A stretch of 64,000 nt of DNA from Nitrosopumilus sp. (GTDB taxonomy: Archaea; Thermoproteota; Nitrososphaeria; Nitrososphaerales; Nitrosopumilaceae): contig OZ240211.1 of NCBI GenBank assembly GCA_965197525.1, forward strand, positions 32,001-96,000, in the 5' to 3' direction. Positions 1,706 through 21,594 of this stretch are shown here, one piece after another. Position 1 is the first letter of the stretch; each line of letters begins with the position of its first letter. Below the pieces are notes generated by a model. That model ran no database searches and was not told the origin of the DNA. It saw nothing but the letters and a program-made list of their open reading frames with translations. A program made the position numbers and the translations under genes.

Positions 1706-1713
1706 CTACTGAA
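1706..1713 (+). repeat. Left 8-bp target-site duplication CTACTGAA of the outer TIR element
   Basis: An identical CTACTGAA lies at 20174-20181, directly outside the matching inverted repeat. Confidence 0.85.
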
Positions 1714-1747
1714 GGGAATTACATACTTGGATTACATTATACGTCAC

Positions 1748-1757
1748 TTATATATAA
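1748..1757 (+). promoter_or_regulatory. Candidate TATA box (TTATATATAA), probably the displaced tnpB promoter
   Basis: After removing the ISH3 composite in silico, the box ends 19 nt upstream of the tnpB ATG, a spacing consistent with a leaderless archaeal transcript. Confidence 0.5.
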
Positions 1758-1772
1758 TACACAGACTATTAA

Positions 1773-3092
1773 CAGTTAACCCAAATGTCTCAAATTTGCC
1801 TGTTTTAAACACTATAAATCGTAAAAGCTATAAGACACTTCAAATGATATTGCATAGTGAACACAAACCACCTGAAGCGCAATATTAAAAATAACATACG
1901 CCTATTTCAAGATACCATTTCTGAGATCCAAACACAAGTGGAACCCTGTGTTCACATATCCAAGGCTGCCAACGCCACATATGATATCACGCATTTTATT
2001 ACCTGTATGATGAATGGTACTCTGAATGATGCATCTGTAAGTGGAAAGGCAGGCGATACACGTTTTGTAGGTGATGACCACTGCAGGCCAAAGGGAACAA
2101 GGCATTATCCCACGGGCGAATGGAACAGACTGATACTTGCCAAGATGAGTAAAAATGAGATTGAGAAATGCCTTGAAGATACGGTTAGAACTCAGATTGC
2201 AGTATTGGACAAAAACAGGTGGATTCCTGACAAAGGCATAGATATAGCGATAGATATGCACAAGATACTCAGGCACGACAAGAAATCAACTGGCGATCTA
2301 ATACATACAAAAGACAAGGGGCACGCAGGATACTATGAGAGATACATAACTGCACAATCAGTCACTTCAGGAATCAGACTGAATCTATGTGCGTATCACA
2401 TGCCTGCACTTGAATCCATAGACAATTTCGTGCGTAAAATCCTCGTTTCATGCCAAAATATTGGAGTCAAGATCAGATATGTCTTACTTGATCGCGAATT
2501 CTTCAACGCCAAAATTCTAGACATGATTGACAAGATGGGATTGTATTACATCACACCATGCAAGAATACGGATACTGTGGTACGATGTATAAGAAAATTC
2601 GATAAAGAGAACGGTCCTGCAGAATCCAAAGTTGAGATCGCAGGATATGATGGTACAGTAGCTGTATACCATATGATCATAGTGACAAGAAAGAAGAGAA
2701 AAAAGATCAAGAATCGCGAGCTCCGGCCGGAGGAGAGATACATCGGATTTTGCTACTAATCAACCCAGTGTAGACGTTGAGATCTATGCCAGCAGATGGG
2801 GCATAGAGACCGGCTACAGAATGTTAGAAAATATTAGAGCCAAAACCAAAAGCAAGAATTCTGCTGCCAGAATGTTCTGTTTTGTGTATTCTCTGTTGTT
2901 TTATAATGCGTGGGTGATGATCAACACGCTCTTATGGCGATCATGCATGGTTGGCTACGCCTAAAAAAACCGATAATCGCGCAGGGGATGATCAAAATAG
3001 CATTGGATAGAACGGTAACGAGATGATAATTCCGCCAGAGCCTCCACCTGACGCGATCTGGCCTTAGAATATGGAGACATTTGGGTTAACTG
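1773..3092 (+). mobile_element. ISH3-family insertion sequence, copy A (1320 bp)
   Basis: Perfect 19-bp TIR CAGTTAACCCAAATGTCTC at 1773-1791 and 3074-3092, enclosing a DDE transposase gene. Confidence 0.92.
1857..2964 (+). pseudogene. ISH3/IS4-like DDE transposase with a +1 frameshift near 2750
   Basis: IAIDMH and VLLDREFF motifs are present. An extra T in GGATTTTGCT ends the frame at 2759, and the shifted frame continues ATNQPSVDVEIYASRWGIETGYRM to a stop at 2964, homologous to copy B. Confidence 0.88.
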
Positions 3093-3194
3093 ATCTATAA
3101 ACTTTATCTTAAATTCTACCATTTCTCGTCTGACATTCGCAAGCGCGCTTTTCAATTCTGCATTTTCTCTTCTCAGATCTGAGTTTTTGGCCAT
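3093..3194 (-). pseudogene. 5' remnant of a small coiled-coil gene truncated by the ISH3-A end
   Basis: ORF 3194-2961 reads MAKNSDLRRENAELKSALANVRREMVEFKIKFID and then runs straight into the IS terminal repeat sequence (QLTQMSP). Confidence 0.45.
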
Positions 3195-3344
3195 TTCTGA
3201 CTGTCGCCTTGATCGTTGACTTTATCATATTTGCCTTCCAAAAAACTACTATTTAGTAAGATTAGTTACAAAAATTTGGTAATACACAAAATAACCTACA
3301 TCAAATTTGACATAGAGATGCAACAAACTAATTTTCATGATTTA

Positions 3345-4357
3345 AACGCCTAAATGACGTGAACGCTTACCATTTTTGCGTCATTCCATCACGACAGCAC
3401 GTTGTAGCAGACGCGCCTGAGCAGCGGCCTTTGGACCCGCAGCGTCTTTGCGCAAATCATTGCAGTGAACATGACTTGAACGACGAGAACACGGACTATT
3501 ATACTGCACTGGTGGCACGTCTTCAAACTCTTCGGGGTTATTCTCCTGCCATCTGATCATCTCTGCCCTAGGACTGAATCCCCTTGCGACGTGGTTCTTG
3601 CAGGTGCAGATGACGGGTCTTCTGTCCGAGTCACGGATCATCTCGTAGTTCTTGTGTGCGTCATATCCTGCATCAAGCATCGCGCATCCGGTGCCGTCTG
3701 GAACATTCTCGAATCTCTCTCAGAATATGGGAGAGTCGTGCGCGTATCCTTTGGTGACTGCACAGGAGACGATCTTTCTTCCCTTGGAATCGACGATCAC
3801 GTATAATTTGACGAATTCGCGCCTGAAGACAAGTCCTCCTCTTGGCGTCTTCTTCCCAGTCTGCGTATTGGTTTATGGCAACCCCCGTGGAGTCGCCCAG
3901 AGGGAACCGCGCGCGTGGGATTCTGCCTGCCATTCCATTACTTTGTGCAGCCACCCATAATCTGCGATTACGGTGGCTGCGTGGCGCAGGCAGGATTTTG
4001 ATGGAGCGGTTTTTAATCCATACATGTGCAGTGTTCCCTGATGTGTCTGCAGGTATGAGACATGTTGACGGTATGAATGGCAGTAGAACTCCAGGTCTGT
4101 AAGGCATACCATGTATGGGATCATACGCACCTTGCCAGGGGGGTGTGGCAGATGGGTAGATTTCATACAGCAGGGCAGTGAGGGCCTTGATTTGCAATCT
4201 AGTTACGTGGCCCTCTCCCTCTCCCCCACCACTCCTCCATGTCTCGTATTCCTTGTAGTATCCGGCGGGGCGTTCCCATTTCTCGTCGTTGGGACTTGCT
4301 TTTGCATCGTTTCTTGCTCTTGCTGTGTTTCGTGTTTGTATCACGTTTTTTGTTCAT
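3345..4357 (-). pseudogene. Degenerate IS5/IS4-type (DDE_Tnp_1) transposase with several frameshifts
   Basis: Fragments across frames: FVKLYVIVDSKGRKIVSCAVTKGYAHDSP and MLDAGYDAHKNYEMIRDSDRRPVI (DAGYD catalytic motif). Confidence 0.75.
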
Positions 4358-4489
4358 CAAGCGGCGTGCGATCTGATCTTTGAGCTTTTCGCTGATTTTG
4401 AATCAAAAATTTGGACAACGCCGCTTGTAAATGTAAAAAAAGAATCATCAATGAGATTTTTTAAAATAGTATCTGAAAAACTAGATGCT

Positions 4490-7400
4490 TTAGGTGTTGT
4501 TCCCCATCACGTACTCTAATGCAACTCTAAACTCGTCTAGGGTTATCAGTCCTTTTACCACTAGTGGTGCAAGATCAGTCATGACCCAGGCAGGTATGTC
4601 TGCTCCCATGTGAGTCAGGCCCATAACAGCTAGCAGTTGATTGTCATCTGCTATCTCAGATTCAAATCCAGACCACATGCGCAGTACAAGCAATGCACGG
4701 TCATAGTCTGAGTCATCATCAAAAGTTTCAATCACAGGTTCTGGATTATCAGGTACTGCAGCAGGTGACCGGGGTTCTGGGTTCGCCTCTGCTACTTGGG
4801 GCTCTGGGTCTGCCTCCGTTGTTGCCTGGGGCTCTGGATCTACTTTTGAGGGTATGATGTTTAGCGCATCAACTATTATGACTATTGAAGACTGACGGTC
4901 TGCGTTCCAAGTTCTGATTACCATGTTGGTATTCCCTATCGCATCTGCAAACGTGATATCAAGTGCGACTGTCTTTTTATTGCGATCATCAGGGTCAGTT
5001 GATATAGTGATGGAGGCATCTGAGAACAGGTTATGAGGATCAACTATGTTGGTCTTGCCTCTGTTGTATTCCACGTATGTATCACTGTTCGTGTATGATA
5101 TGTCATCATCTTGCAGGTTCAGGTATACTGCAAAGTAGAGTATGTCAAGTCTGTCGTGTGCCGTAAAACTCATGGATATGGGTTGTTGGTCTACTGCAAC
5201 CTCCAGCGGCGTGGGATGATGGTTTACCCTGTTTTGAACATTGTAACTCTGGCCGTTTATCTCAAGTGTATCCACAGATGGTGGTGGTGCGGTACCTGAC
5301 TTTTTGGACTTGAGCAGTATGGTAGCATCAACAAATGATTCCAAAGGTTTGCCTGACTCGTCTACAACATTGCCTGTACCGCTGTCGTATGAGAGCGTGT
5401 CCCCACGAGACAGTGAACCGTCAAGTAGTAACGTAAGGGTGTTTGTGCCATTTCCGGTGATGGATTCCACTGTGACTGTACTACCAGAAGAAGAGGATAC
5501 TGTAAATCCGTTGAGGCCTGTTCCATTGATTTTGACTGGCTCAGAGAATGTCAGCGTTATAGAAGAGCCAGAGCCCCGTACAGATACAAGACGTGGAGCT
5601 ATGTCATTTACTGTAACTGATACCAGTTCAGATGCTGTGCCACCGTTACCATCCGAGACGGTCACATTAATGGAGTGTACACCGTCCTGGGACTGGTCAG
5701 GCCTCCAAGAGAACGAGCCTTCCCGGGTGATTGATGCACCACGTGGTATGTCCCCGTCAAGTGAGAATCTCAAAGAGTTAGGAGAGCCTTGATATATGTC
5801 GACGTCCCGGGCTGTTGCAGTAAACCTAAGCGTGTCTGTCTCATCTATGGTCTGTGCACCTATGGGATCAAGTCGTGGATTCTGATTTACCTCAGTTACA
5901 GTTATTGTGACGTTTTGCGAGTCTGTGCCTCCGTTACCATCAGAGACCTGTACGGTTATGGTGTGACGGCCATCCTGTGCCTCAGTTGGCGTCCATGAGA
6001 ACACTCCGGTGTTGGTATCCATCGCGGCACCGTCAGGTATCGGCTCGATAAGGGAGTATGTCCGGGCATCGTTATCATCAGGATCAGTTGCTTCAGCAGT
6101 GAATGTGAGGAGTGTAAGCTCATCTCCAGTCTGCGGTGAGATATTATTCAGTACGGGTAACTGGTTGACTGTGTAGGTCTCATTAGAGCCGATCACTGTC
6201 AGGTCAATCAGACTGTTGGTTGCAGTATCCTGTATGTCGTGGTTTTGTGCGATATCCAAGCCGATGGTTCCACTAGCGGTTACTGTGACTGTTACTCGGT
6301 ATGATGCACCGGAACCTGATACGCCAGATATTGTACCTGTACCGGAGCCCGTTACTGTAAAATCGGCATCATCCACATTGGTTACTGGTTCATCAAACGT
6401 GACAGCAAACACCAAGGTGGTATCAGTTGTGGATTGAGCTAGAGGGGTACCACGCAGTATGGAGGCAACGCGGGGCGGAGTGGTGTCTGTTACCGTGACT
6501 GTGTAGGTCTGATCAGAGCCGGTAGGTGCCAAGTTGGCCAAACGGTTGGTTGCGGTATCCTGTATGTCGTGGTTTTGTGCGATATCCAAGCCGATGGTTC
6601 CAACATTATCTACTGTGACTGTTACCCGGTATGATGCACCGGAACCTGATACGCCAGATATTGTGCCGGTGCCGGTGCCTGTTACTGTAAAATCGGCATC
6701 ATCCACATTGGTTACTGGTTCATCAAACGTGACAGCAAACACCAAGGTGGTATCAGTTGTGGATTGAGCTAGAGGGGTACCACGCAGTATGGAGGCAACG
6801 CGGGGCGGAGTGGTGTCTGTTACCGTAGTGCCTGTTACCGTAGTCTCTGTTACCGTGTAGGTCTGATCAGAGCCGGTAGGTGTCAGGTTGGCCAAACGGT
6901 TGGTTGCGGTATCCTGTATGTCGTGGTTTTGTGCGATATCCAAGCCGATGGTTCCAACATTATCTACTGTGACTGTTACTCGGTATGATGTACCGGAACC
7001 TGATACGCCAGATATTGTGCCGGTGCCGGTGCCTGTTACTGTAAAATCGGCATCATCCACATTGGTTACTGGTTCATCAAACGTGACAGCAAACACCAAG
7101 GTGGTATCAGTTGTGGATTGAGCTAGAGGGGTACCACGCAGTATGGAGGCAACGCGGGGCGGAGTGGTGTCTGTTACCGTGGGGGCGGTGGGATCAATAT
7201 CTTTGTTTTGCTCTACTTCCTTGTCAAGATATATGACATTGATGGCGCCGCGGTCTCGCCCGCTGTTATCATCTCGATAAGCACCAACTGCAAGGTCTGT
7301 CACCCCGTCGCCGTCAAGGTCGCCTATGGAAGCAACGGAGACGCCGAAATAGTCACTGTTTGATAGCGTGGGACCGTTTGTAGTGGAGTCGTTTATCTCT

Positions 7401-10400
7401 ACTGTGCTGTCTACCGTACCGTCAGTATTCATAAACATTATGTGTACTGCGCCGCGGTCTTGTCCGCTGTTATCATCTTGATAAGCACCAACTGCAAGGT
7501 CTGTCACCCCGTCGCCGTCAAAGTCGCCTATGGAAGCAACGGAGACGCCGAAATTGTCACTGTTTGATAGCGTGGGACCGTTTGTAGTGGAGTCGTTTAT
7601 CTCTACTGTGCTGTCTACCGTACCGTCAGTATTCATAAACATTATGTGTACTGCGCCGCGGTCTGATCCGCCGTTGTCATCTCCATAAGCACCAACTGCA
7701 AGGTCTGTCACCCCGTCGCCGTCAAGGTCGCCTATGGAAGCAACGGAGATGCCGAAATTATCATAGTTTAATAGCGTGGGACCGTTTGCAGTGGAGCTGT
7801 TTATCTCTACTGTGCTGTCTACCGTACCGTCAGTATTCATAAACATTATGTGTACTGCGCCGCGGTCTGATCCGCCGTTGTCATCTTGATAAGCACCAAC
7901 TGCAAGGTCTGTCACCCCGTCGCCGTCAAGGTCGCCTATGGAAGCAACGGAGATGCCGAAATTGTCACTGTTTGATAGCGTGGGACCGTTTGCAGTGGAG
8001 CTGTTTATCTCTACTGTGCTGTCTACCGTACCGTCAGTATTCATAAACATTATGTGTACTGCACCGCGCTCTGATCCGCCGCCGTTATCATCTTGATAAG
8101 CACCAACTGCAAGGTCTGTCACCCCGTCGCCGTCAAGGTCGCCTATGGCAGCAACGGAGATGCCGAAACGGTCACTGCTTGATAGCGTGGGACCGTTTGT
8201 AGTGGAGTCGTTTATCTCTACTGTGCTGTCTACCGTACCGTTTGTATTCATAAACATTATGTGTACTGCGCCGCTGTCTAGTTTGCTGTGGTCATCTCGA
8301 GCAGCACCAACTGCAAGGTCTGTCACCCCGTCGCCGTCAAGGTCGCCTATGGAAGTAACGGAGACGCCGAAACGGTCACTGTTTGATAGCGTGGGACCGT
8401 TTGTAGTGGAGTCGTTTATCTCTACTGTCCTGTCAACAATAAAGGCAACGCGGGGCGGAGTGGTGTCTGTTACCGTGGGAACTGACACATCGGTTACCGT
8501 GACGTCATAGGTGTCAAAAGCCGTGGCCCCGTCGTCGTCAGTAACAGTGAGGGTAAATGTAACTTGGGTGTCAGATGATACCTGTGACGCAGTGTACTGC
8601 AGGGTTGCTGCGTTACCGGACGTTATCGTAATAACAGATGTGTCATCCACGCTCCACGCGTATGTGGATATTGTACCATCAGAGTCAGAGGCAATACCCG
8701 TGAGCGTGCCGGATGCGCCCTCGTTGATTGTAGTGTCGCCGGTTATGCTGCTGATAGTTGGGGACTGGTTGGGGACTGGCACATTGTTTACCGTGACATC
8801 GTAGGTGGCAGATGCCGTGGCCCCGTCGTCGTCGGTAACAGTGAGGGTAAATGTAACTTGGGTGTCAGATGATACCTGTGATGCAGTGTATCGCAGGATA
8901 GCCGCATCGCCAGTCGTGATCGTGATAGTAGACGTATCATCCACGCTCCACAGGTACGAGGATATGTTGCCGTCAGAATCGGAGGCAATACCCGTGAGCG
9001 TGCCGGATGCGCCCTCGTTGATTGTAGTGTCGCCGGTTATGCTGCTGATAGTTGGGGACTGGTTGGGGACTGGCACATTGTTTACCGTGACATCGTAGGT
9101 GGCAGATGCCGTGGCCCCGTCGTCGTCGGTAACAGTGAGGGTAAATGTAACTTGGGTGTCAGATGATACCTGTGATGCAGTGTACTGCAGGGTTGCTGCG
9201 TTACCGGACGTTATCGTAATAACAGATGTGTCATCCACGCTCCACGCGTATGTGGATATTGTACCATCAGAGTCAGAGGCAGTGCCCGTGAGCGTGCCGG
9301 ATGCGCCCTCGTTGATTGTAGTGTCGCCGGTTATGCTGCTGATAGTTGGGGACTGGTTGGGGACTGGCACATTGTTTACCGTGACATCGTAGGTGGCAGA
9401 TGCCGTGGCCCCGTCGTCGTCGGTAACAGTGAGGGTAAATGTAACTTGGGTGTCAGATGATACCTGTGATGCAGTGTATCGCAGGATAGCCGCATCGCCA
9501 GTCGTGATCGTGATAGTAGACGTATCATCCACGCTCCACAGGTACGAGGATATGTTGCCGTCAGAATCGGAGGCAATACCCGTGAGCGTGCCGGATGCGC
9601 CCTCGTTGATTGTAGTGTCGCCGGTTATGCTGCTGATAGTTGGGGACTGGTTGGGGACTGGCACATTGTTTACCGTGACATCGTAGGTGGCAGATGCCGT
9701 GGCCCCGTCGTCGTCGGTAACAGTGAGGGTAAATGTAACTTGGGTGTCAGATGATACCTGTGATGCAGTGTACTGCAGGGTTGCTGCGTTACCGGACGTT
9801 ATCGTAATAACAGATGTGTCATCCACGCTCCACGCGTATGTGGATATTGTACCATCAGAGTCAGAGGCAGTGCCCGTGAGCGTGCCGGATGCGCCCTCGT
9901 TGATTGTAGTGTCGCCGGTTATGCTGCTGATAGTTGGGGACTGGTTGGGGACTGGCACATTGTTTACCGTGACATCGTAGGTGGCAGATGCCGTGGCCCC
10001 GTCGTCGTCGGTAACAGTGAGGGTAAATGTAACTTGGGTGTCAGATGATACCTGTGATGCAGTGTACTGCAGGGTTGCTGCGTTACCGGACGTTATCGTA
10101 TGTGGATATAACAGATAGTGTCATCCACGCTCCACGCGTATGTGGATATTGTACCATCAGAGTCAGAGGCAGTCAGTGAGGGTAAATGTAACTTGGGTGT
10201 CAGATGATACCTGTGATGCAGTGTACTGCAGGGTTGCTGCGTTACCGGACGTTATCGTAATAACAGATGTGTCATCCACGCTCCACGCGTATGTGGATAT
10301 TGTACCATCAGAGTGAGGCAGTGCCCGTGAGCGTGCCTGATGTGCCCTCGTTGATTGTAGTGTCGCCGGTTATGCTGCTGATAGTTGGGGACTGGTTGGG

Positions 10401-13400
10401 GACTGGCACATTGTTTACCGTGACATCGTAGGTGGCAGATGCCGTGGCCCCGTCGTCGTCGGTAACAGTGAGGGTAAATGTAACTTGGGTGTCCGAGGAT
10501 ACCTGTGATGCAGTGTATCGCAGGATAGCCGCATCGCCAGTCGTGATCGTGATAGTAGACGTATCATCCACGCTCCACAGGTACGAGGATATGTTGCCGT
10601 CAGAATCGGAGGCAATACCCGTGAGCGTGCCTGATGCGCCCTCGTTGATTGTAGTGTTACCGGTTATGCTGCTAATAGTTGGGGGCTGGTTGGGAACGGT
10701 AAATATCTCAATGTTCTTGTTCTGCGCAAGGGATCCGAATGCCCCGGGCGGGTTAAAGTCAAACATTACAGCAGGATCCGGGAGGAGAGGGATTACGTCC
10801 CTGCCTGGGCTCTTAAGGGCAGTGATCGTTGCCCCCCCCATCTCACCGTCAGGCGACAGTGAGTTTTGTGCAACATACTGGAGATCAGAGGATACGTCCG
10901 TACTCTGTGGCGCGTACCTGAAGGTAAGGATGTCGGTGCCGCTACCGGACAGATAGGGGGCCGTTCTGTGTTGTGGACTGACATCAAGCGTGAGTCGGGG
11001 CGTTCCGGTTACGGCCACTGGTTCTGAAAATTTGACTGTAATATCGACTGTCTGGCTTGATCCGTACGTGCCGTCTGCAGTGGTGGAGGACACGGCGCGG
11101 ATCAATACATCCTTGTCAAAGTACATGATGTGCACGGTGCCGTGATCCGTCCCGCCGTGGTCGTCGCCCCAAGCGCCTGCGGCAAGGTCCGGCACCCCGT
11201 CGCCGTCAAGGTCGCCTATTGCCGCGACGGATGCGCCAAAAAAGTCATCGTCTGACAGTACGGGGCCGTTTGCAGTGGAGTCGTTTATCTCGACTGTACC
11301 CTTTACCGTGCCGTTACCGTTCATGAACATGACGTGCACGGCGCCGTGATCCGTCCCGCCGTTGTCGTCGCCATCAGCGCCTACGGCAAGGTCCTGCACC
11401 CCGTCGCCGTCAAGGTCGCCTATTGCCGCGACGGATATGCCAAAATAGTCCTCGTCTGACAGTACGGGGCCGTTTGCAGTGGAGTCGTTTATCTCGACTG
11501 TACCCTTTACCGTGCCGTTACCGTTCATGAACATGACGTGCACGGCGCCGCGGCCCGGCCCGCCGTTGTAGTTGCCCCAAGCGCCTACGACAAGGTCTTG
11601 CACTCCGTCGCCGTCAAGGTCGCCTATTGCCGCGACGGATGCGCCAAAATAGTCCTCGTCTGACAGTACGGGGCCGTTTGCAGTGGAGTCGTTTATCTCA
11701 ACTGTGCCCTTTACAGAGCCGTTACCGTTCATGAACATGACGTGCACGGCGCCGCGGCCTTCCCCGCCGTTGCTGTCGCCATTAGCGCCTGCGGCAAGGT
11801 CCGGCACCCCGTCGCCGTCAAGGTCGCCTATTGCCGCGACGGATGTGCCAAAAAAATCATTGTTTGATAGTACGGGGCCGTTTGCAGTGGAGTTGTTTAT
11901 CTCGACTGTATCCTTTACAGAGCCGTTACCGTTCATGAACATGACGTGCACGGCGCCGTGATCCGTCCCGCCGTTGTCGTCGCCATTAGCGCCTACGGCA
12001 AGGTCCTGCACCCCGTCGCCGTCAAGGTCGCCTATTGCCGCGACGGATCTGCCAAAACCGTCATCGTCTGACAGTACGGGGCCGTTTGCAGTGGAGTTGT
12101 TTATCTCGACTGTGCCCTTTACAGAGCCGTTACCGTTCATGAACATGACGTGCACGGCGCCGCGCTTCTCCCCGCCGTCGTCATCTCCCTGAGCACCAAC
12201 TGCAAGGTCTGTCACCCCGTCGCCGTCAAGGTCGCCTATTGCCGCGACGGATCCGCCAAAATAGTCATAGTCTGACAGTACGGGGCTGTTTGCGGTGGAG
12301 TCGTTTATCTTGACCGTATCCTTTACAGAGCCGTTACCGTTCATGAACATGACGTGCACGGTGCCGTGATCCGTCCCGCCGTGGTCGTCGCCCCAAGCGC
12401 CTGCGGCAAGGTCCTGCACCCCGTCGCCGTCAAGGTCGCCTATTGCCGCGACGGATGCGCCAAAAAAGTCATCGTCTGACAGTACGGGGCCGTTTGCAGT
12501 GGAGTCGTTTATCTCGACCGTATCCTTTACAGAGCCGTCGCGGTTCATGAACATGACGTGCACGGCGCCGTGATCCGTCCCGCCGTTGTCGTCGCCATCA
12601 GCGCCTACGGCAAGGTCCTGCACCCCGTCGCCGTCAAGGTCGCCTATTGCCGCGACGGATATGCCAAAATAGTCCTCGTCTGACAGTACGGGGCCGTTTG
12701 CAGTGGAGTCGTTTATCTCGACTGTACCCTTTACCGTGCCGTTACCGTTCATGAACATGACGTGCACGGCGCCGCGGCCCGGCCCGCCGTTGTAGTTGCC
12801 CCAAGCGCCTACGACAAGGTCTTGCACTCCGTCGCCGTCAAGGTCGCCTATTGCCGCGACGGATGCGCCAAAATAGTCCTCGTCTGACAGTACGGGGCCG
12901 TTTGCAGTGGAGTCGTTTATCTCAACTGTGCCCTTTACAGAGCCGTTACCGTTCATGAACATGACGTGCACGGCGCCGCGGCCTTCCCCGCCGTTGCTGT
13001 CGCCATTAGCGCCTGCGGCAAGGTCCGGCACCCCGTCGCCGTCAAGGTCGCCTATTGCCGCGACGGATGTGCCAAAAAAATCATTGTTTGATAGTACGGG
13101 GCCGTTTGCAGTGGAGTTGTTTATCTCGACTGTATCCTTTACAGAGCCGTTACCGTTCATGAACATGACGTGCACGGCGCCGTGATCCGTCCCGCCGTTG
13201 TCGTCGCCATTAGCGCCTACGGCAAGGTCCTGCACCCCGTCGCCGTCAAGGTCGCCTATTGCCGCGACGGATCTGCCAAAACCGTCATCGTCTGACAGTA
13301 CGGGGCCGTTTGCAGTGGAGTTGTTTATCTCGACTGTGCCCTTTACAGAGCCGTTACCGTTCATGAACATGACGTGCACGGCGCCGCGCTTCTCCCCGCC

Positions 13401-16400
13401 GTCGTCATCTCCCTGAGCACCAACTGCAAGGTCTGTCACCCCGTCGCCGTCAAGGTCGCCTATTGCCGCGACGGATCCGCCAAAATAGTCATAGTCTGAC
13501 AGTACGGGGCTGTTTGCGGTGGAGTCGTTTATCTTGACCGTATCCTTTACAGAGCCGTTACCGTTCATGAACATGACGTGCACGGTGCCGTGATCCGTCC
13601 CGCCGTGGTCGTCGCCCCAAGCGCCTGCGGCAAGGTCTGTCACCCCGTCGCCGTCAAGGTCGCCTATTGCCGCGACGGATGCGCCAAAAAAGTCATCGTC
13701 TGACAGTACGGGGCCGTTTGCAGTGGAGTCGTTTATCTCGACCGTATCCTTTACAGAGCCGTCGCGGTTCATGAACATGACGTGCACGGCGCCGTGATCC
13801 GTCCCGCCGTTGTCGTCGCCATCAGCGCCTACGGCAAGGTCCTGCACCCCGTCGCCGTCAAGGTCGCCTATTGCCGCGACGGATATGCCAAAATAGTCCT
13901 CGTCTGACAGTACGGGGCCGTTTGCAGTGGAGTCGTTTATCTCGACTGTACCCTTTACCGTGCCGTTACCGTTCATGAACATGACGTGCACGGCGCCGCG
14001 GCCCGGCCCGCCGTTGTAGTTGCCCCAAGCGCCTACGACAAGGTCTTGCACTCCGTCGCCGTCAAGGTCGCCTATTGCCGCGACGGATGCGCCAAAATAG
14101 TCCTCGTCTGACAGTACGGGGCCGTTTGCAGTGGAGTCGTTTATCTCGACTGTACCCTTTACCGTGCCGTTACCGTTCATGAACATGACGTGCACGGCGC
14201 CGCGGCCTTCCCCGCCGTTGCTGTCGCCATTAGCGCCTGCGGCAAGGTCCGGCACCCCGTCGCCGTCAAGGTCGCCTATTGCCGCGACGGATGTGCCAAA
14301 AAAATCATTGTTTGATAGTACGGGGCCGTTTGCAGTGGAGTTGTTTATCTCGACTGTATCCTTTACAGAGCCGTTACCGTTCATGAACATGACGTGCACG
14401 GCGCCGTGATCCGTCCCGCCGTTGTCGTCGCCATTAGCGCCTACGGCAAGGTCCTGCACCCCGTCGCCGTCAAGGTCGCCTATTGCCGCGACGGATCTGC
14501 CAAAACCGTCATCGTCTGACAGTACGGGGCCGTTTGCAGTGGAGTTGTTTATCTCGACCGTATCCTTTACAGAGCCGTTACCGTTCATGAACATGACGTG
14601 CACGGCGCCGCGCTTCTCCCCGCCGTCGTCATCTCCCTGAGCACCAACTGCAAGGTCTGTCACCCCGTCGCCGTCAAGGTCGCCTATTGCCGCGACGGAT
14701 CCGCCAAAATAGTCATAGTCTGACAGTACGGGGCTGTTTGCGGTGGAGTCGTTTATCTCTACTGTGTTGTCGACAGAGCCGTTTCCATTGGTTTTCATGC
14801 CATTAATGTGGATTATGTGTACGGCGCCGCGGTCTGATCCGCCCTCGTCATCTTGATAAGCACCAACTGCAAGGTCTGTCACCCCGTCGCCGTCAAGGTC
14901 GCCTATGGAAGCAACGGAGACGCCGAAACTGTCATCGTCTGATAGCGTGGGACCGTTTGTAGTGGAATCGTTTATCTCTACTGTGCTGTTTATCGTACCG
15001 TCAGTATTCATAAACATTATGTGTACGGCGCCGCGCTCTGATCCGCCGTCGCCGTCATCTTGATAAGCACCAACTGCAAGGTCTGTCACCCCGTCGCCGT
15101 CAAGGTCGCCTATGGAAGCAACGGAGACGCCGAAATAGTCAACGTTTGATAGCGTGGGACCGTTTGCAGTGGAGTCGTTTATCTCTACTGTGCTGTTTAT
15201 CGTACCGTCAGTATTCATAAACATTATGTGTACGGCGCCGCGGTCTCGTCCGCGGTCGTCATCTCGATTAGCACCAACTGCAAGGTCTGTCACCCCGTCG
15301 CCGTCAAGGTCGCCTATGGAAGCAACGGAGGCGCCGAAATAGTCAACGTTTGATAGCGTGGGACCGTTTGCAGTGGAGTCGTTTATCTCTACTGTGCTGT
15401 CTACCGTACCGTCAGTATTCATAAACATTATGTGTACTGCGCCGCGGTCTGATCCGCTGTCGTCATCTCGATTAGCACCAACTGCAAGGTCTGTCACCCC
15501 GTCGCCGTCAAGGTCGCCTATGGAAGCAACGGAGGCGCCGAAGCGGTCAACGTCTGATAGCGTGGGACCGTTTGCAGTGGAGTCGTTTATCTCTACTGTG
15601 CTGTCTACCGTACCGTCAGTATTCATAAACATTATGTGTACTGCGCCGCGGTCTCGTCCGCCGCCGTCATCTCGAGCAGCACCAACTGCAAGGTCTGTCA
15701 CCCCGTCGCCGTCAAGGTCGCCTATGGAAGCAACGGAGACGCCGAAACGGTCATTGTCTGATAGCGTGGGACCGTTTGCAGTGGAGCTGTTTATCTCTAC
15801 TGTGCTGTCTACCGTACCGTCAGTATTCATAAACATTATGTGTACTGCGCCGCGGTCTGATCCGCCGCCGTCATCTCGAGCAGCACCAACTGCAAGGTCT
15901 GTCACCCCGTCGCCGTCAAGGTCGCCTATGGGAGTAACGGAGAAGCCGAAGCGGTCAACGTCTGATAGCGTGGGACCGTTTGCAGTGGAGCTGTTTATCT
16001 CCACTACGGAGTTTGGATACGCGTTGTTTGATGCGTACGCAGTATCCACACCAAAGCTTAGATGTATGTCGTGTATGCCAGGGGTGTGAACCGATAGCAC
16101 GAGGCTTGCGATGCCGTCGCACTGATAGTCCTCAAACGTAATGATCCCATCATGTGCTGTAGCATCCAGTATGGAGTCGTTGCCGCACAATACCCCCACA
16201 AACCCCACGTCGTCAGGAGAAGAGTCCCCAAACGTGGTGCCGTTTATTACAGAGATTGTTAGGTTATGGGTACCGTATGTCCTAAAGTTTATCGTCCACT
16301 CCCCGCCCACTACAGGATAGGACTGCGGGTTGAGTACGTCGATTCGCCCGTACTCACGGTTCAGAAAACTGGCTGCCGACTGCTGTATCTCTGAGGTAGT

Positions 16401-16566
16401 TACCGTTACAGGTGTGGGGGGGGGGGCTGTCAGTTATCGTGATCACAGGGTCAGTCATATAGGCAGACGCAAAACTGACATCATAGTACTGGAACAGTAA
16501 CAAAGATACAGTCACTACCACAATGGCCATGACTGTCATAGTATGATGAATTCTTAATGTATTCAT
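4490..16566 (-). CDS. Giant secreted or surface protein (~4000 aa if joined), split in this sequence into ORFs 16354-16566, 10308-16310 and 4490-9958. Order: signal/TM, N-domain, 24 FG-GAP repeats, Ig-like, ~7-8 PKD/cadherin-like repeats, 6 FG-GAP, 3 Ig-like, 2 cadherin/He_PIG-like, conserved C-terminal domain
   Basis: Repeat content is continuous across the breaks. The breaks are an 11-C tract at 16416-16426 and a scrambled repeat junction at ~10085-10320. GDLDGDGVTDLAVGA is the FG-GAP calcium-binding motif. The N-terminus is hydrophobic. Confidence 0.8.
6170..7185 (-). repeat. Three near-identical Ig-like repeats (DTTPPRVASILRGTPLAQSTTDTTLVFAVTFDEPV...)
   Basis: Three copies are visible in the DNA and protein, with spacings of ~354 and ~318 bp. 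Confidence 0.9.
7230..8440 (-). repeat. Six FG-GAP repeats (~204 bp unit)
   Basis: Six GD(L/F)DGDGVTDLAVGA motifs in ORF 4490-9958. Confidence 0.92.
8500..10700 (-). repeat. 294-bp tandem PKD/cadherin-like repeats alternating between two variants (588-bp dimer)
   Basis: Shadow ORFs start at 8511, 8805, 9099, 9393 and 9687. The variants are SGNAATLQY and TGDAAILRY. Confidence 0.92.
11130..16010 (-). repeat. 24 FG-GAP repeats: one block of 6 plus a 1224-bp six-repeat block present three times
   Basis: Near-identical shadow ORFs at 11683, 12907 and 14131 give a 1224-bp period. 24 DLDGDGV motifs were counted in the translation. Confidence 0.92.
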
Positions 16567-16628
16567 ATCACATTCCCACCATTATCATACAATAATCCAC
16601 AGGGACTATTTAAAAAGATTGTATATTC

Positions 16629-16758
16629 AACTCTGTTTCCTAATTACATGCAACACAGACACCCATCTGTGTGATTTTGCTTATGTCATTGCCTTCCCTC
16701 CTACACTGCGGTCTTTGTGGCGGGTTTTAGACTGATACACTATCTTTGGTGTGCCGTA
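16629..16758 (-). mobile_element. ~130-bp remnant of the 3' end of the IS5-family element found at 45.3-46.6 kb
   Basis: Near-identical to 45289-45418 (AACTCTGTTTCCTAATTACATGCAACACAGAC...TATCTTTGGTGTGCCGTA). Confidence 0.85.
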
Positions 16759-16870
16759 GTATTCCCATTGGATAATAGCTCATTTTGACTATACACATTT
16801 TGTATGTGTTTACATCGTACTTGGAAAAATAAGAGATGTTCCCACAGTGTGTTAAACTTATGCCTAAATC

Positions 16871-18590
16871 CAGTTAACCCAAAAGTGAGCCTAATCTAAC
16901 GTCTAAAAATCAATGCGGTGCTTTCAAATATCGTCATCTTTGAGAAAAAGACAGGCTTGATGGCTATTGCGTATAGTTTAAAGATCCGTCTGCAGACAAG
17001 ACCGAACATGACAGCCTAATCTTCAGAAAAAGTACTGGCTTTTCTGATACTAGATGTATCAAACATTTTAAAAATATGAACAGTTTTTTATCCTATCTAT
17101 TTGTACATCTAACAGAACGTCTGAAATTTGATGTTTGATGTACGTCGTAGATGTCTAGTACGAACACAGCGATCCGATGTCAGGCGGCGTCTTATAGCGC
17201 GGTTCGTGCCGGGCAAGCACGGTTATTATCTCGATTCGCAGATGTGTCTGCGTCATGCGTTTTGTGTTCTTGTCTGCCGGCTTGGATGTCGCAGACATCA
17301 TCGCATTTATCATCACCCAAGCATTGAACATTACCACAGAGTACAAAAAGCAGAATATCCTGGATACGGTCTTGTTGCTGCGCGTCCGCGCCCTCATCTC
17401 TTCTATCATGCGGTATCCCGTCTCTATGCCCCATCTCTTGGAGTACAGTTCGGCATCCTGAATAGGCATGTTGGTGGCAAATCCGATGAACTCTTCTTCT
17501 GGACGTGTATGCACATCGTCTGATTTTTCCCCACTGCTGCTTTTCTTCCTCTTCCTCTTCTTCTTCTTCTTACGCTCGGTTATGATTATGGTATACTTTA
17601 CTGACACTCCGTCGGCATTTGTGATGTATAGACTCGATACCGCCTTCCGTCTTCCCGCAACAAATTCTGCGATTGCATCCACTACGACATCTGTGTTCTT
17701 GCACGGTACAAGGTAGCCCACATCCATCTTCTCAAGGGCCTCAAAGACACGAGTGGAAAAGAATTCGCGGTCAAGCAATACGGCCCTGATATTACATCCC
17801 ACACTGCGGCATATTGCAATCAGGTCGCGTACAAAACCAGGAACATCCTCAAGTGCTCCCATGTGTAGGACTCCCAGTACAAGACGCGGTCCGCCGTCAA
17901 CGCACTGCGCTGTGATGTACCTCTCAAACGTCCCGGTTCCATTATTTCTTCTTGAACGCGTCAGATCGATGCCGGGTTCTTTGTCCCATCGCGGGATCAG
18001 GTGCATATCTATTGCAATTACCATGCCTTCGTTTGAAACCTGTCCGAGTGCGCGCACCGCATCAAGCTGCAGGCGCACAGAATTGGCAAAATCTTTCATC
18101 ATCTCAGTCCTGTCAATCTTGGCAAGAAGTCCGTTGAACCATTCGTCAGTGGGTGATGATGCCCGATGATGCGTTCCTGCACCCGTACTCCACTCAATAT
18201 GATTCCGTACCGCCGAAGCCGTGGCCCCTACAGAAGAGCCGTTGACTGTAGCCCACATCATGCCCCTGTTAAAGTCGTCAAGCCCGTATGTCCTGTTGGG
18301 GCTGTCCGATATTTTGATGCACGAGCAGATGCTGTCCTCGGCTGCCCTTACTGCTGCATCACTGCGCCTTTTATGCTGGCCGAACCATGATGATGAGAGA
18401 CGAATGTTTTGATTTGACACGTCATATTGTCATAAAAGTTATTTTTATGGTATTGTATTAGGCATTGCATAGAATTATGTCAAAATTTGTTCAGGCATGA
18501 AGTGGTGCTGGTACACAACAAAGGCAGTTGTTAATTTCATATGTGTTAAGGGAAATGATTCATATGAATTGCTTACTTTTGGGTTAACTG
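16871..18590 (-). mobile_element. ISH3-family insertion sequence, copy B (1720 bp)
   Basis: TIR CAGTTAACCCAAAAGT(G/A)AGC, 19/20 identical, at 16871-16890 and 18571-18590. Confidence 0.92.
17155..18420 (-). CDS. ISH3-family DDE transposase, apparently intact
   Basis: Catalytic D, D and E in IAIDMHLIP, VLLDREFFS and RWGIETGYR. Uninterrupted 421-aa ORF. Confidence 0.92.
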   Translation of the reverse strand: MSNQNIRLSSSWFGQHKRRSDAAVRAAEDSICSCIKISDSPNRTYGLDDFNRGMMWATVNGSSVGATASAVRNHIEWSTGAGTHHRASSPTDEWFNGLLAKIDRTEMMKDFANSVRLQLDAVRALGQVSNEGMVIAIDMHLIPRWDKEPGIDLTRSRRNNGTGTFERYITAQCVDGGPRLVLGVLHMGALEDVPGFVRDLIAICRSVGCNIRAVLLDREFFSTRVFEALEKMDVGYLVPCKNTDVVVDAIAEFVAGRRKAVSSLYITNADGVSVKYTIIITERKKKKKRKRKKSSSGEKSDDVHTRPEEEFIGFATNMPIQDAELYSKRWGIETGYRMIEEMRARTRSNKTVSRIFCFLYSVVMFNAWVMINAMMSATSKPADKNTKRMTQTHLRIEIITVLARHEPRYKTPPDIGSLCSY

Positions 18591-18599
18591 ATTAACTGG

Positions 18600-20168
18600 A
18601 TGGAAAAAGAAATAGAAGATTTTATTTATAGAACAGTGATTGTAAAACCAAGGCAGACAAAAGAACTGTCATTGAAGGCACGCAGGATTGCAAACTTTCA
18701 GACGTATTTTTTCAACATGGGCGTAGAGGCAGGACTGGTTGAAAAATATGACAAAATCAAGACAAGCCGTACCATTACTGACATACATCACACCATGCCA
18801 TGGAGCAACAGATATCACACCAATGTGGCAACAACTGCGTTCCAACAGGGGCATGATACGGCAGACAAACATTTGAAATCCTGCGCAAAAAAACGCAGAG
18901 TACGAAACTGGGCAAAAAAGACTGGTGACAAGAACCACAACTGGCACACGTCATTTAAAAATCTCAAACCAAACAAATGGATTGACAGAAACAGTTTGTT
19001 CAGAAACGCCAAAAATGCAAAACATGCATCCATAACAGTAAACGGTAAGCATCCCTCGCTAAGGATGGGAAAGTGGAAAAAACTGTACATGAATCTGCCT
19101 GGTATGGGTCAGGTGGAGCTGTTGTCGTCTTTGAATAATCTTCCAAAGCAACTGGCATGTGAAAGAGACAAAAACAGCACTAGCAAATTCTACCAGACCA
19201 ACATTGTATCATACAGGCTTGTAGAGAACACCAAAAAAATCACTGTCAATACAAACGATTCGAACCGCACGTTTGAGATCCATCTGACACTAAAAATACA
19301 GAGACCTAAAAATACGGATCGTACAGTCGTATGCGGAATAGACATGGGGGTTAAGAGATCCCTAGTCGTTCATGACGGAATAAATGCCGATTTTTACAGG
19401 ACACCTTATTCCTGTAGGAGAAAGAAAGACGATGTAGTCTCAGAACAACAGTCAAAAAGAGACGGCCACAAACTGCATAGTAACAGATGGAAAAAAGAGG
19501 ATCGCAAACTGAAGAGGATGAAGAAAACACTCAACAACAGAAGAACCGAGCACAATAATTTCCTTGCCAAACAGATTGTGATGAGAACAGGAGTGATAGT
19601 CATGGAAAAACTAAACATTGGCAATATGACTGCAAAAAATGAAAAGCGGAAAAGCGGCCTTAACAGGGAGATTTACGGGGCAGGTATGGGAAGAATGGGG
19701 GATAGAATAAAAATGACTGCCGAAAACCACGGAACCAAAACGCTTGAGATTGTTCCGCATTATACCAGCATAACGTGTAGTAAGTGCAATATGATCAACA
19801 GCAACTCTAGAACTACCAGGGATGCGTTTCAATGCGTATACTGTGGATTTTTGTGCGATGCAGACGATAACGCCAGCACAAACATCAGACATTACGGACT
19901 TCCGTGCATACGAAGGCTCCCGCTTGTAGACAGATATGGAAACTACAGGTGTGACAGCATGGAAAATATTATTTTAGCTAATAAAAATGGCACATCTAAT
20001 AGTGTCAGTGTTATTAGGGGCGGTAGGGATTATCGTCACAAGACAGAAGAATCAAAATATGGCTTACACCATGTTGTTTCTAAAAAAGACGGCAAGAACC
20101 AAGCTGTGAATGATTTGTTGGACTGTCAGAAAAAAACCTTGGTGTATAAATGTAACCTAGGTATATAA
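18600..20168 (+). CDS. tnpB: TnpB/Cas12f-like RNA-guided endonuclease (RuvC plus zinc finger), 522 aa
   Basis: RuvC-I VCGIDMG, RuvC-II VIVMEKLNI, zinc finger TSITCSKC...CVYCG and RuvC-III DADDNASTNI. All three acidic residues are present, followed by a ~90-aa extra C-terminal tail. The stop codon lies inside the right TIR. Confidence 0.92.
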   Translation: MEKEIEDFIYRTVIVKPRQTKELSLKARRIANFQTYFFNMGVEAGLVEKYDKIKTSRTITDIHHTMPWSNRYHTNVATTAFQQGHDTADKHLKSCAKKRRVRNWAKKTGDKNHNWHTSFKNLKPNKWIDRNSLFRNAKNAKHASITVNGKHPSLRMGKWKKLYMNLPGMGQVELLSSLNNLPKQLACERDKNSTSKFYQTNIVSYRLVENTKKITVNTNDSNRTFEIHLTLKIQRPKNTDRTVVCGIDMGVKRSLVVHDGINADFYRTPYSCRRKKDDVVSEQQSKRDGHKLHSNRWKKEDRKLKRMKKTLNNRRTEHNNFLAKQIVMRTGVIVMEKLNIGNMTAKNEKRKSGLNREIYGAGMGRMGDRIKMTAENHGTKTLEIVPHYTSITCSKCNMINSNSRTTRDAFQCVYCGFLCDADDNASTNIRHYGLPCIRRLPLVDRYGNYRCDSMENIILANKNGTSNSVSVIRGGRDYRHKTEESKYGLHHVVSKKDGKNQAVNDLLDCQKKTLVYKCNLGI

Positions 20169-20173
20169 TTCCC

Positions 20174-20181
20174 CTACTGAA
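20174..20181 (+). repeat. Right 8-bp target-site duplication CTACTGAA
   Basis: Matches 1706-1713. Confidence 0.85.
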
Positions 20182-20227
20182 TATTATCACAAACAGCTTT
20201 TTTAAATGGCGATACAAACCATTGATT

Positions 20228-20566
20228 ATGTCTGATGATCTCCAGAAGCGAGCAGCTGATATGTTGTTAAATGGTGCGACATTACTCGGTGAGCCTTGTC
20301 CATACTGTAACGGTGTTAGAGTTCTGAATCACGGATATGCGTTATGTACTAGTTGTGGCAGCGAACCTGAATCAAAGGATGTTCATTCTCCTTCTACTCC
20401 AACAAATCATAATCCTCCTCCTCCTCCTCCTATTGATGATGTTTTACAACAAAAGATAGACTCTCTATCAAAAGAACTGGCATCAGAAAGAGATCATCAA
20501 AGACAACAAAATATCCTAAAAACAATAAATTTGCTGTTAGATACGGCAAATAGGATTAAAAGCTGA
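20228..20566 (+). CDS. Autoantigen p27 (Sjogren/scleroderma autoantigen 1)-like zinc-ribbon protein
   Basis: AADMLLNGATLLGEPCPYC...CTSC matches the family pattern. ATG at 20228. Confidence 0.8.
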   Translation: MSDDLQKRAADMLLNGATLLGEPCPYCNGVRVLNHGYALCTSCGSEPESKDVHSPSTPTNHNPPPPPPIDDVLQQKIDSLSKELASERDHQRQQNILKTINLLLDTANRIKS

Positions 20567-20611
20567 TTACTAGTGTATATTCTTCAGTCTTTATTTACGA
20601 TATTTAGGGAA

Positions 20612-21353: not shown

Positions 21354-21594
21354 CCCCACTGTCTGGCATATCGCCTTATCTGCGTAGTGTTCCCATTTGA
21401 TAATAGCTCATTTTGATTTTATTATTTTTGTACATCTCTTGTATAAATATTATTTATCTTGTCAATGTCAGTATACAGAATGTTTGTAATATTCTACTTG
21501 AACATGAAAATACATTTAGTTAAAAAATAATTTACTAAATACGCAATATTTTTTAAACCAAAAAGCTGTATTACGATAACGATTTGAACAACAC

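What the first reader, a model, noticed from the sequence alone, without database searches (positions are those of the whole stretch)
19890..20195. Predicted omega-RNA and guide logic adapted to a TSD-forming element
Established: TnpB omega-RNA is transcribed from the element's 3' end, often overlapping the ORF, and the guide is the flanking DNA, so the empty site is cut next to a 5' TAM. Seen: after RuvC-III there is a ~90-aa low-information tail running into the TIR, leaving no separate non-coding space. Inference: the scaffold overlaps roughly 19900-20173 and includes the TIR. The guide would begin with the TSD (CTACTGAATATTATCACAAA). The empty site would read TCTTTGC-CTACTGAA-TATTATCAC, which puts the TAM within TTTGC. 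The occupied left junction matches only the first 8 guide bases, which could give self/non-self discrimination.
Basis: inference. Interest (0 to 1): 0.72.

Follow-up and report, generated by a model that had tools for sequence, protein, structure and literature searches.

The report
TnpB guide-RNA scaffold inside TIR transposon
The last 157 bases of a small archaeal jumping gene that carries only the RNA-guided nuclease TnpB form a conserved folded RNA, most likely its guide-RNA scaffold, but the predicted targeting motif next to the insertion site is not supported.

Summary
ORF 18600-20168 is a TnpB with an intact catalytic triad. It sits in a 1637-bp element with about 33-bp inverted ends and 8-bp target duplications. 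The genome holds 8 copies. The ORF's stop codon lies inside the right inverted repeat.

The window copy is split. Its left end (1714-1772) is separated from tnpB by a 16.8-kb IS-bounded insert.

The omega-RNA inference is largely supported, but the scaffold is 20017-20173, not 19900-20173.
- From about 20016 onward, third-codon-position identity jumps from about 0.5 to 0.75-0.81.
- dS collapses there and dN/dS rises to 0.6-1.8.
- A seven-helix fold shows compensatory changes.
- A covariance model finds the same RNA, ending exactly at the element end, in a TnpB family only about 30% identical.
- That family reads the shared motif in another reading frame.

Residues 431-465 of the "tail" are real, selected protein.

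The guide and TAM logic is only partly supported. A related organism has the empty site. However, the seven target sites of this same element share no base upstream of, or inside, the duplication. "TAM within TTTGC" is therefore unsupported.

The ends match IS1595-family elements, so a DDE transposase acting in trans probably moves it. DDE-associated TnpBs are already published. I file this as a new member of that kind.

The parts
1706..1713 (.). Left copy of the 8-bp target-site duplication, CTACTGAA
   Evidence: It is identical to 20174-20181 and lies directly next to the left inverted repeat.
1714..1772 (+). Left end of the TnpB element. It holds the inverted repeat (about 1714-1746) and a TATA-like ATATATAA box. 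In intact copies this box sits about 25-30 nt before the ATG.
   Evidence: positions 1-60 of the 1637-bp reference copy match at 95%. The promoter reading is inference.
1773..18590 (.). 16.8-kb insert that splits the element. It consists of IS-A (1773-3092), 13.8 kb with two giant repeat-protein genes, and IS-B (16871-18590). ATTAA is duplicated only at the outer ends.
   Evidence: The CAGTTAACCCAAA repeats lie at 1773, 3092(-), 16871 and 18590(-). The inner flanks ATCTA and AAATC do not match ATTAA.
18600..20168 (+). tnpB ORF, 522 aa. The RuvC triad is D248/E336/D422 and the zinc finger is C393/C396/C412/C415.
   Evidence: Five intact copies in the genome are 93-100% identical.
19890..19992 (+). 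First part of the post-RuvC-III tail (aa 431-465, LPCIRRLPL..YGNY..NIILAN), which is protein under purifying selection
   Evidence: dN/dS 0.14-0.19. P435, C436, I437, R438, P441, G447, Y449 and N461 are invariant.
20017..20173 (+). Predicted omega-RNA scaffold (157 nt, seven helices). It overlaps ORF codons 473-522 and the right inverted repeat.
20141..20173 (+). Right terminal inverted repeat. It supplies the loop and 3' arm of the last hairpin (ACCUUGG / CCUAGGU) and contains the ORF's stop codon.
   Evidence: helices 6 and 7.
20174..20181 (.). Right copy of the target-site duplication, CTACTGAA
20174..20193 (+). Putative guide, if the scaffold ends at the element boundary as in IS200/IS605. 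Inferred, not shown.
   Evidence: Analogy with IS200/IS605 TnpB. There is indirect support from the W-T-R motif directly 5' of the duplication in the sister IS6-like family. An RNA-library contig crosses 20173 at another copy (weak).

Best explanation
Window 18591-20173, together with 1714-1772, is one copy of a 1637-bp non-autonomous transposon whose only gene is an active-looking TnpB.

Mobility. The element has IS1595-type inverted ends (GGGAATTAT...) and makes 8-bp target duplications. An IS1595-family DDE transposase encoded elsewhere most likely moves it. The genome has no Y1 TnpA.

The RNA. The last 157 nt (20017-20173, + strand) encode the omega-RNA scaffold.
- It lies wholly inside the tnpB reading frame, which stays open until a TAA inside the inverted repeat.
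- Its last hairpin is built from the inverted repeat.
- It ends at the element boundary.

Proposed action. Transcription running on into the flank would add a guide. That guide most likely starts at 20174, so it would be the duplication followed by the flank. TnpB loaded with this RNA would recognise the uninserted or precisely excised site.

Shown here: element anatomy, the copies and their duplications, nucleotide-level constraint, the covarying fold, and its conservation in a distant TnpB family.

Inferred: that the RNA is made and bound by TnpB, where the guide starts, that the empty site is cut, and which transposase acts.

In this particular copy the native promoter region is 16.8 kb away, so it may be poorly expressed.
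For: Element.
- 8 copies with boundaries at the same bases, each with its own 8-bp duplication.
- Metagenomic homologues 41-80% identical have the same ends and duplications.
- An empty site is present in a related organism.

RNA.
- dS falls from 0.8-2.0 in the core to 0.14-0.37 in codons 466-522, with dN/dS 0.6-1.8.
- Third-position identity is about 0.5 along the ORF and 0.75-0.81 from nt 20016 to the end.
- On 10 sequences, 95.9% of cells are paired and 11 pairs carry double changes. 0 of 500 shuffles reach this, and slid controls give 28-39% paired.
- Covariance model R1 gives full-length hits that end exactly at the element end in about 460-aa TnpB elements of other genomes.
- On that model-fitted alignment, 32 of 46 pairs show compensatory changes and 89.8% of cells are paired, against 35-45% when slid.
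- Invariant G-U pairs make the fold specific to the + strand. The minus strand has z = 0.05.
- The motif GGCGG..GGGA..GTCGTC is read as GGRDYR here and as AAGxVV, in another frame, in the 460-aa family.

Mobilisation.
- No PF01797 match in the genome.
- Two IS1595-family genes are present.
- IS1595 elements in three related genomes start with GGGAATTAT. Two of them are flanked by an intact 8-bp duplication; the third is not.
- The genome's own 333-aa IS1595-family transposase is 55-65% identical to theirs.
- A 165-bp MITE and a 386-bp deletion derivative carry the same ends and their own duplications.

Precedent. DDE-associated and solo TnpBs with inverted ends, whose 3' end lies within 250 bp of the transposon end, are published (PMC10691335).
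Against: - There is no direct RNA evidence. The only RNA-library data are assembled contigs. One of them (19988-20173, then 251 nt of another flank) cannot show ends, strand or level, and may derive from DNA.
- Single-sequence folding is unremarkable (z = -1.33).
- No Rfam family matches.
- No TAM-like motif is present at the target sites, unlike the sister family. Empty-site cutting is therefore unproven and may not apply to most copies.
- The structure was derived from the same alignment on which it was first counted, and alignment A5 is fitted to the model.
- No IS1595 element with clean matching ends was found in this genome itself.
- The window copy is cut off from its left-end promoter region.
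Confidence: 0.68

Rival explanations
1. The omega-RNA is real, but it follows the Fanzor pattern. The 8 duplicated bases would be part of the scaffold or a linker, and the guide would start at 20182 (TATTATCAC...). Any TAM would then lie in the duplication.
For: Yoon et al. 2023 (PMC10711439) report this for TIR/TSD-borne Fanzors. Their reRNAs include the TIR and the TSD in the scaffold and extend about 15 nt beyond the TSD.
Against: The duplication here varies in sequence, so it cannot form conserved pairs. No motif is conserved in its last bases either. In the sister IS6-like family the conserved W-T-R sits directly 5' of the duplication, which fits a guide that starts at the duplication.
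Confidence: 0.17
2. The RNA is real and bound by TnpB, but this family does not work by cutting the empty site. It may have a very relaxed or absent TAM, or serve another role such as regulating the element or acting on other DNA.
For: No shared base lies upstream of or inside the duplication in seven insertions of the same element. The sister family passes the same test 21 of 21 times. A review argues that cut-and-paste DDE elements gain little from restorative homing (PMC13565253).
Against: The catalytic triad and zinc finger are invariant and under purifying selection. The scaffold ends exactly at the boundary, as expected if the flank serves as the guide. The sample is small: 7 sites, plus 7 from relatives.
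Confidence: 0.1
3. The conserved 3' 157 nt are subterminal DNA sites for the transposase, or a functional C-terminal protein tail, and not an RNA.
For: The region includes the inverted repeat. The ORF stays open through it in every family member, and indels there are multiples of three.
Against: Compensatory base-pair changes and strand-specific G-U pairs argue for an RNA. The left end has no comparable conserved block. dN/dS is 0.6-1.8 with a third-position identity of 0.8. The same nucleotides are read in a different frame in the 460-aa family.
Confidence: 0.05

Closest known systems
DDE-transposase-associated TnpB branches (DDE-1 to DDE-6) and solo TnpBs with matching ends (Altae-Tran et al. 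2023, PNAS, PMC10691335)
   Same: TnpB lies between inverted terminal repeats rather than IS200/IS605 ends. The tnpB 3' end is within 250 bp of the transposon end. Solo TnpB copies are presumably moved in trans.
   Different: The partners named in that paper and in the 2026 review are IS630, ISL2 and IS1031. IS1595 does not occur in the main text of the paper. Here the ends and the 8-bp duplication match IS1595-family elements. No transposase-carrying version with identical ends was found in this genome. Placement on their tree was not tested.
IS200/IS605 TnpB-omega-RNA (ISDra2 type)
   Same: The RuvC and zinc-finger nuclease are shared. The RNA scaffold overlaps the 3' end of tnpB and ends at the right transposon boundary. 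The flank is the presumed guide.
   Different: Here there is no Y1 TnpA in the whole genome, the ends are inverted repeats, and 8-bp duplications are made. There is no fixed target motif that could double as a TAM. No Rfam or omega-RNA family matches.
Fanzor reRNAs in TIR/TSD transposons (Yoon et al. 2023, NAR, PMC10711439)
   Same: The inverted repeat forms part of the RNA scaffold, and the element is non-autonomous and carries only the nuclease.
   Different: Here the host is a prokaryote (an archaeon) and the duplication is 8 bp of variable sequence. Whether it belongs to the scaffold or the guide is unknown.
IS6-like TnpB-only elements of the same genome (earlier scan notes; re-tested)
   Same: Both are TnpB-only elements with inverted ends and 8-bp duplications, with the omega-RNA region at the 3' end, and no TnpA.
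   Different: That family has GGTTCTG ends, a TnpB of about 400 aa, and a strict W-T-R motif directly 5' of the duplication (21 of 21). The present family has GGGAATTAT ends, a 522-aa TnpB with an extra protein segment of about 35 aa, and no such motif. Model R1 does not hit those elements.

Membership tests
TnpB / OMEGA RNA-guided nuclease | RuvC-like fold with a D-E-D triad and a CxxC..CxxC zinc finger | tested here: met
   Pfam OrfB_IS605 and Cas12f1-like_TNB score above their cut-offs. D248, E336, D422, C393, C396, C412 and C415 are invariant in 16 homologues.
TnpB / OMEGA RNA-guided nuclease | A structured omega-RNA encoded at or overlapping the 3' end of tnpB and ending at the transposon boundary | tested here: met
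   A covarying seven-helix fold spans 20017-20173. The covariance model hits end at the element end in a distant family. Transcription itself was not shown.
TnpB / OMEGA RNA-guided nuclease | A guide taken from the flank, and a fixed TAM 5' of the target in the empty site | tested here: not met
   The guide is not testable in silico. For the TAM, no base is conserved upstream of or inside the duplication in 7 same-element sites or in 23 family sites. The positive control family gives W-T-R in 21 of 21 sites.
IS200/IS605 (including the IS1341 group) | No inverted repeats, no target duplication, subterminal hairpins, and mobilisation by Y1 TnpA | tested here: not met
   The element has about 33-bp inverted repeats and 8-bp duplications. 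PF01797 is not found in a genome that is 99% complete, while the control genomes match.
IS1595 family (as a non-autonomous derivative) | An 8-bp target duplication and family-type inverted ends | tested here: met
   24 of 28 elements have intact 8-bp duplications: 23 scored, plus one mis-registered there and read. IS1595-transposase elements in three related genomes start with GGGAATTAT; two of them have 8-bp duplications and the third does not. My recollection that ISfinder lists 'ggnnatTAT' ends for the ISNwi1 group could not be checked in the held papers.
IS1595 family (as a non-autonomous derivative) | A DDE_Tnp_IS1595 transposase inside the element | tested here: not met
   The only ORF is tnpB. 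Two IS1595-family genes lie elsewhere in the genome. One is 55-65% identical to the transposases of the matching elements.
DDE-associated TnpB branches (Altae-Tran 2023) | Phylogenetic placement in branches DDE-1 to DDE-6 | not tested
Fanzor-type reRNA | The TIR, and also the TSD, incorporated in the scaffold | tested here: inconclusive
   The TIR forms helices 6 and 7. The TSD varies in sequence and lies outside the modelled fold, so its role is unknown.

The most novel reading that the evidence does not exclude
This archaeal TnpB-omega-RNA module rides an IS1595-type DDE transposon and works without a conventional TAM, or does not work by empty-site homing. In addition, its reading frame is kept open through the whole guide-RNA scaffold up to a stop codon inside the inverted repeat, in two TnpB families that read the RNA in different frames. 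That would suggest a coupling between translation of the tail and maturation or folding of the omega-RNA.
Probability: 0.12. Interest if true: 0.7.

Novelty: new member of a known kind. Interest (0 to 1): 0.45.

Why it matters
How RNA-guided nucleases co-operate with cut-and-paste (DDE) transposons that duplicate their target is known mainly from eukaryotic Fanzors. For prokaryotic DDE-linked TnpBs there are only genomic surveys.

This genome offers two TnpB-only families side by side, both with inverted ends and 8-bp duplications.
- One has a clear TAM-like motif directly beside the duplication.
- The family in this finding has none.

This is a natural contrast for asking where the guide starts and whether empty-site cutting is general. 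It also gives a defined 157-nt scaffold and a compact nuclease from an uncultured sponge symbiont, both of which could be tested directly.

Tried and rejected
- Rfam scan of 18400-20700 at E <= 1: no match.
- The search for related loci over one genome per species: no close relative outside this genome. The close family comes only from ENA metagenomes.
- AlphaFold2 on a 16-row alignment: mean pLDDT 58, and residues 420-522 all below 50. This is too poor to say whether the tail is disordered.
- Single-sequence folding: z = -1.33, not informative on its own.
- A clean IS1595 element with matching ends in this genome: not found.
  - The 333-aa transposase gene sits beside tRNA-Leu.
  - A GGGGATTATATAC terminus lies 1 kb upstream of it.
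  - No right-hand partner was found, and an IS6-like TnpB element is inserted nearby.
- RNA evidence: only Logan contigs were available. Coverage gaps and depth in run X1 are not evidence of expression level or RNA ends.
- MAFFT alignment A3 misplaced a 27-nt insertion in three sequences. I left those sequences out of the seed alignment and recovered them with the covariance model.
- An inversion between IS copies as the cause of the split element: rejected. The left end keeps its orientation, and ATTAA flanks only the outer ends of the insert.
- The literature search for ISNwi1 end sequences gave nothing usable.

Full report
**What is there.** ORF 18600-20168 (+) encodes a 522-aa protein that matches OrfB_IS605 (aa 232-344) and Cas12f1-like_TNB (aa 365-429). 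In an alignment with 15 homologues, the RuvC triad (D248, E336, D422) and the four zinc-finger cysteines are invariant. The window is G000:C1:32001-96000 of a single-contig 2.21-Mb genome with 39.6% G+C. Earlier scan notes and the runs that hold this DNA point to a sponge-associated Nitrosopumilus-type archaeon.

**The element and its ends.** The genome has five intact copies of the gene (93-100% identical) plus degraded ones.
- DNA similarity at the 3' end stops exactly at window 20173.
- With a full copy as reference, the element is 1637 bp and occurs eight times. One copy is a 386-bp internal-deletion derivative and two are split or decayed.
- Every intact copy starts with GGGAATTACATACTTGGATTACATTATAC, ends with GTATAAATGTAACCTAGGTATATAATTCCC, and is flanked by its own 8-bp direct repeat.
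- In the window the repeat is CTACTGAA, at 1706-1713 and 20174-20181.

**The window copy is split.**
- The left end (1714-1772) is separated from the ATG by 16.8 kb (1773-18590).
- This block is bounded by two different IS4-like elements with CAGTTAACCCAAA ends: IS-A at 1773-3092 and IS-B at 16871-18590.
- Only the outer ends are flanked by ATTAA.
- It therefore looks like a composite-transposon insertion between the element's TATA-like box and its start codon. This copy may be poorly expressed.

**The empty site.** A 17.9-kb contig from a related organism (run X5, about 93% identical) joins ...CTTCTTTGC to TATTATCAC... with 8 nt between them. This confirms that everything from 1714 to 20173 is inserted DNA. 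It also confirms the outline of the reconstructed empty site, although five of those eight bases differ from CTACTGAA.

**The family.** Close relatives (41-80% identity, 514-564 aa) exist only in ENA metagenome assemblies. A scan of one genome per species found none. Ten loci that I fetched carry the same ends, and most have intact 8-bp duplications. A shorter TnpB family of about 460 aa, about 30% identical, occurs once in this genome and in several related genomes. It has the same GGGRATTATATA ends and 8-bp duplications.

**Is the tail protein or RNA?** Pairwise dN/dS separates the tail into two parts.
- Residues 431-465 behave like the core: dN/dS is 0.14-0.19 and several residues are invariant.
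- Residues 466-522 have dS of only 0.14-0.37, against 0.8-2.0 in the core, and dN/dS of 0.6-1.8.
- A sliding window shows third-codon-position identity of about 0.5 (0.37-0.69) along the whole ORF. It rises to 0.75-0.81 from nt 20016 to the end.
- The conserved motif GGCGG..GGGA..GTCGTC starts at codon position 1 here (GGRDYR). It starts at codon position 3 in the 460-aa family (AAGxVV).

The constraint is therefore on nucleotides, not on amino acids. "A ~90-aa low-information tail" is half right.

**The fold.** RNAalifold on ten family members gives seven helices over 20017-20173:
- a 5' hairpin (GGCGGUAG / UUAUCGUC);
- a long-range stem (GACAG / CUGUC) that encloses GAAUCA / UGAUUU;
- a hairpin with the conserved loop GGCUUACACC;
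- a hairpin with the loop AAGAACCAA;
- a terminal domain in which ACCUUGG pairs with CCUAGGU of the inverted repeat, and GAA pairs with UUC of the last bases.

The counts support it.
- 95.9% of cells are paired and 11 pairs have changes on both sides. 0 of 500 shuffles reach this, and slid controls give 28-39% paired.
- A covariance model built from this alignment gives full-length hits in the 460-aa family of other genomes, each ending exactly at the element end.
- On that model-fitted alignment, 32 of 46 pairs show compensatory changes. These include all five pairs of the stem that is invariant in the close family. 89.8% of cells are paired, against 35-45% when slid.
- Invariant G-U pairs, and the lack of any signal on the minus strand, place the RNA on the tnpB strand.

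The caveats are these.
- The structure was derived from the same sequences on which it was first counted.
- Alignment A5 is fitted to the model.
- Single-sequence stability is ordinary (z = -1.33).
- Rfam has no match.

**RNA data.** Only assembled contigs were available. In a sponge metatranscriptome, a 437-nt contig covers 19988-20173 and continues for 251 nt into the flank of another copy. Its word depth is 13.9, against 2-5 for the ORF-body contigs. This is compatible with transcripts crossing the right end. It cannot show RNA ends, strand or level, and it may derive from DNA.

**Who moves it.**
- The genome has no Y1 TnpA, although the control genomes match.
- It has two IS1595-family DDE genes and eight IS6-like ones.
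- IS1595-transposase elements in three related genomes are bounded by repeats that start with GGGAATTAT. Two of them are flanked by 8-bp duplications (CAATGGGG and AAAATTAT). The third is not.
- The genome's own 333-aa IS1595-family protein is 55-65% identical to their transposases.
- A 165-bp MITE and the 386-bp derivative carry the same ends and their own duplications.

Mobilisation in trans by an IS1595-family transposase is the best inference. I did not find a clean autonomous partner in this genome.

**Guide and TAM.** If the scaffold ends at the boundary, as in IS200/IS605, the guide starts with the duplication (CTACTGAATATT...). The TAM would then be the bases just upstream in the empty site.
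- I reconstructed 23 empty sites. No position upstream of or inside the duplication exceeds 0.55 bit.
- The seven sites of this very element have TTTGC, TTAAT, GTAAG, CGGTA, CATGC, ACTGT and TTAAG. A fixed TAM "within TTTGC" is therefore not supported.
- Following a lead from earlier scan notes, I ran the same test on the IS6-like TnpB family of this genome. All 21 sites with perfect duplications have W-T-R directly 5' of the duplication, on the left side only.
It also makes the absence of a motif here meaningful.
- In the 460-aa family, position -1 is a purine in 10 of 10 sites and G in 8. I read this by eye from the listing. It is a weak hint.

On self versus non-self, the left junction does match only eight guide bases. 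The fully matching self-site, however, is the right junction. Protection there must come from the element's own last bases (..ATTCCC) not being a TAM.

**Comparison with the literature.**
- Altae-Tran et al. 2023 (PMC10691335) describe six DDE-associated TnpB branches with inverted terminal repeats and solo TnpBs with the same ends. The tnpB 3' end usually lies within 250 bp of the transposon end.
- A 2026 review names IS630, ISL2 and IS1031 as the partner families (PMC13565253).
- Yoon et al. 2023 (PMC10711439) report that Fanzor RNAs in TIR/TSD elements include the TIR and the TSD in the scaffold.

The kind is therefore known. The IS1595-type partner, this archaeal family and its scaffold are new members. 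The scan has already reported the IS6-like sister family many times in this genome.

**Verdict.**
- The omega-RNA inference is supported by computation, with a corrected 5' edge.
- The guide start is plausible but open.
- The TAM proposal is not supported.

Noticed in passing
window 1773-18590: A 16.8-kb block is bounded by two different IS4-like elements with the same CAGTTAACCCAAA ends (IS-A 1773-3092, IS-B 16871-18590). ATTAA flanks only the outer ends. The block carries two giant repeat-protein genes (4490-9958 and 10308-16310, minus strand). It looks like a composite transposon inserted between the TnpB element's TATA-like box and its ATG. A second copy of IS-B (97% identical) lies at G000:20001-21714.
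   Followed up: partly
window 20607-20738: A 132-nt remnant (89% identical) of the right end of the second TnpB element family (the L011 type, G000:1984842-1986191). It is in inverted orientation, with its terminus at 20607 facing the Zn-ribbon gene.
   Followed up: partly
G000 genome-wide (for example 164138-165346 and 182378-183601): TnpB-only elements with IS6-like ends have a strict W-T-R motif directly 5' of the 8-bp duplication. It occurs on the left side only, in 21 of 21 sites with perfect duplications.
   Followed up: yes
G000:891809-891973 and G000:562158-562543: A 165-bp MITE has GGGGATTATATA ends and the duplication TTTCATAT. A 386-bp internal-deletion derivative of the 1637-bp element has the duplication ATGTTAAC. 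It keeps only the last 73 nt of the RNA region.
   Followed up: partly
L011, L036, L037, L040, L049, L056, L059, L060 and the window: In both TnpB families the reading frame stays open through the whole RNA scaffold. It stops at the TAA inside the inverted repeat, 5 nt from the element end, although the two families read the shared RNA motif in different frames. The other two frames of the window scaffold contain early stops.
   Followed up: partly
L011 and loci L036-L060 (460-aa family): Position -1 relative to the duplication is a purine in 10 of 10 sites and G in 8. This may be a weak TAM-like signal that the 522-aa family lacks. It was read by eye from the listing.
   Followed up: no
window 20174-20181 compared with run X5: In the related organism's empty site, the 8 nt at the insertion point read CCGATTAC rather than CTACTGAA. 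That is 5 of 8 bases different, while the flanks are about 93% identical.
   Followed up: no
window 20222-20566 and 20942-22026: A 114-aa Zn-ribbon protein of the p27 autoantigen family (PF06677) lies directly downstream of the element. Beyond it are fragments of an IS630-like transposase (DDE_3 and HTH pieces).
   Followed up: no
G000:615175-616176: An intact 333-aa IS1595-family transposase gene sits directly after a tRNA-Leu(CAG) gene. A GGGGATTATATAC terminus lies 1 kb upstream, and an IS6-like TnpB element is inserted 0.5 kb downstream. No matching right end was found.
   Followed up: partly
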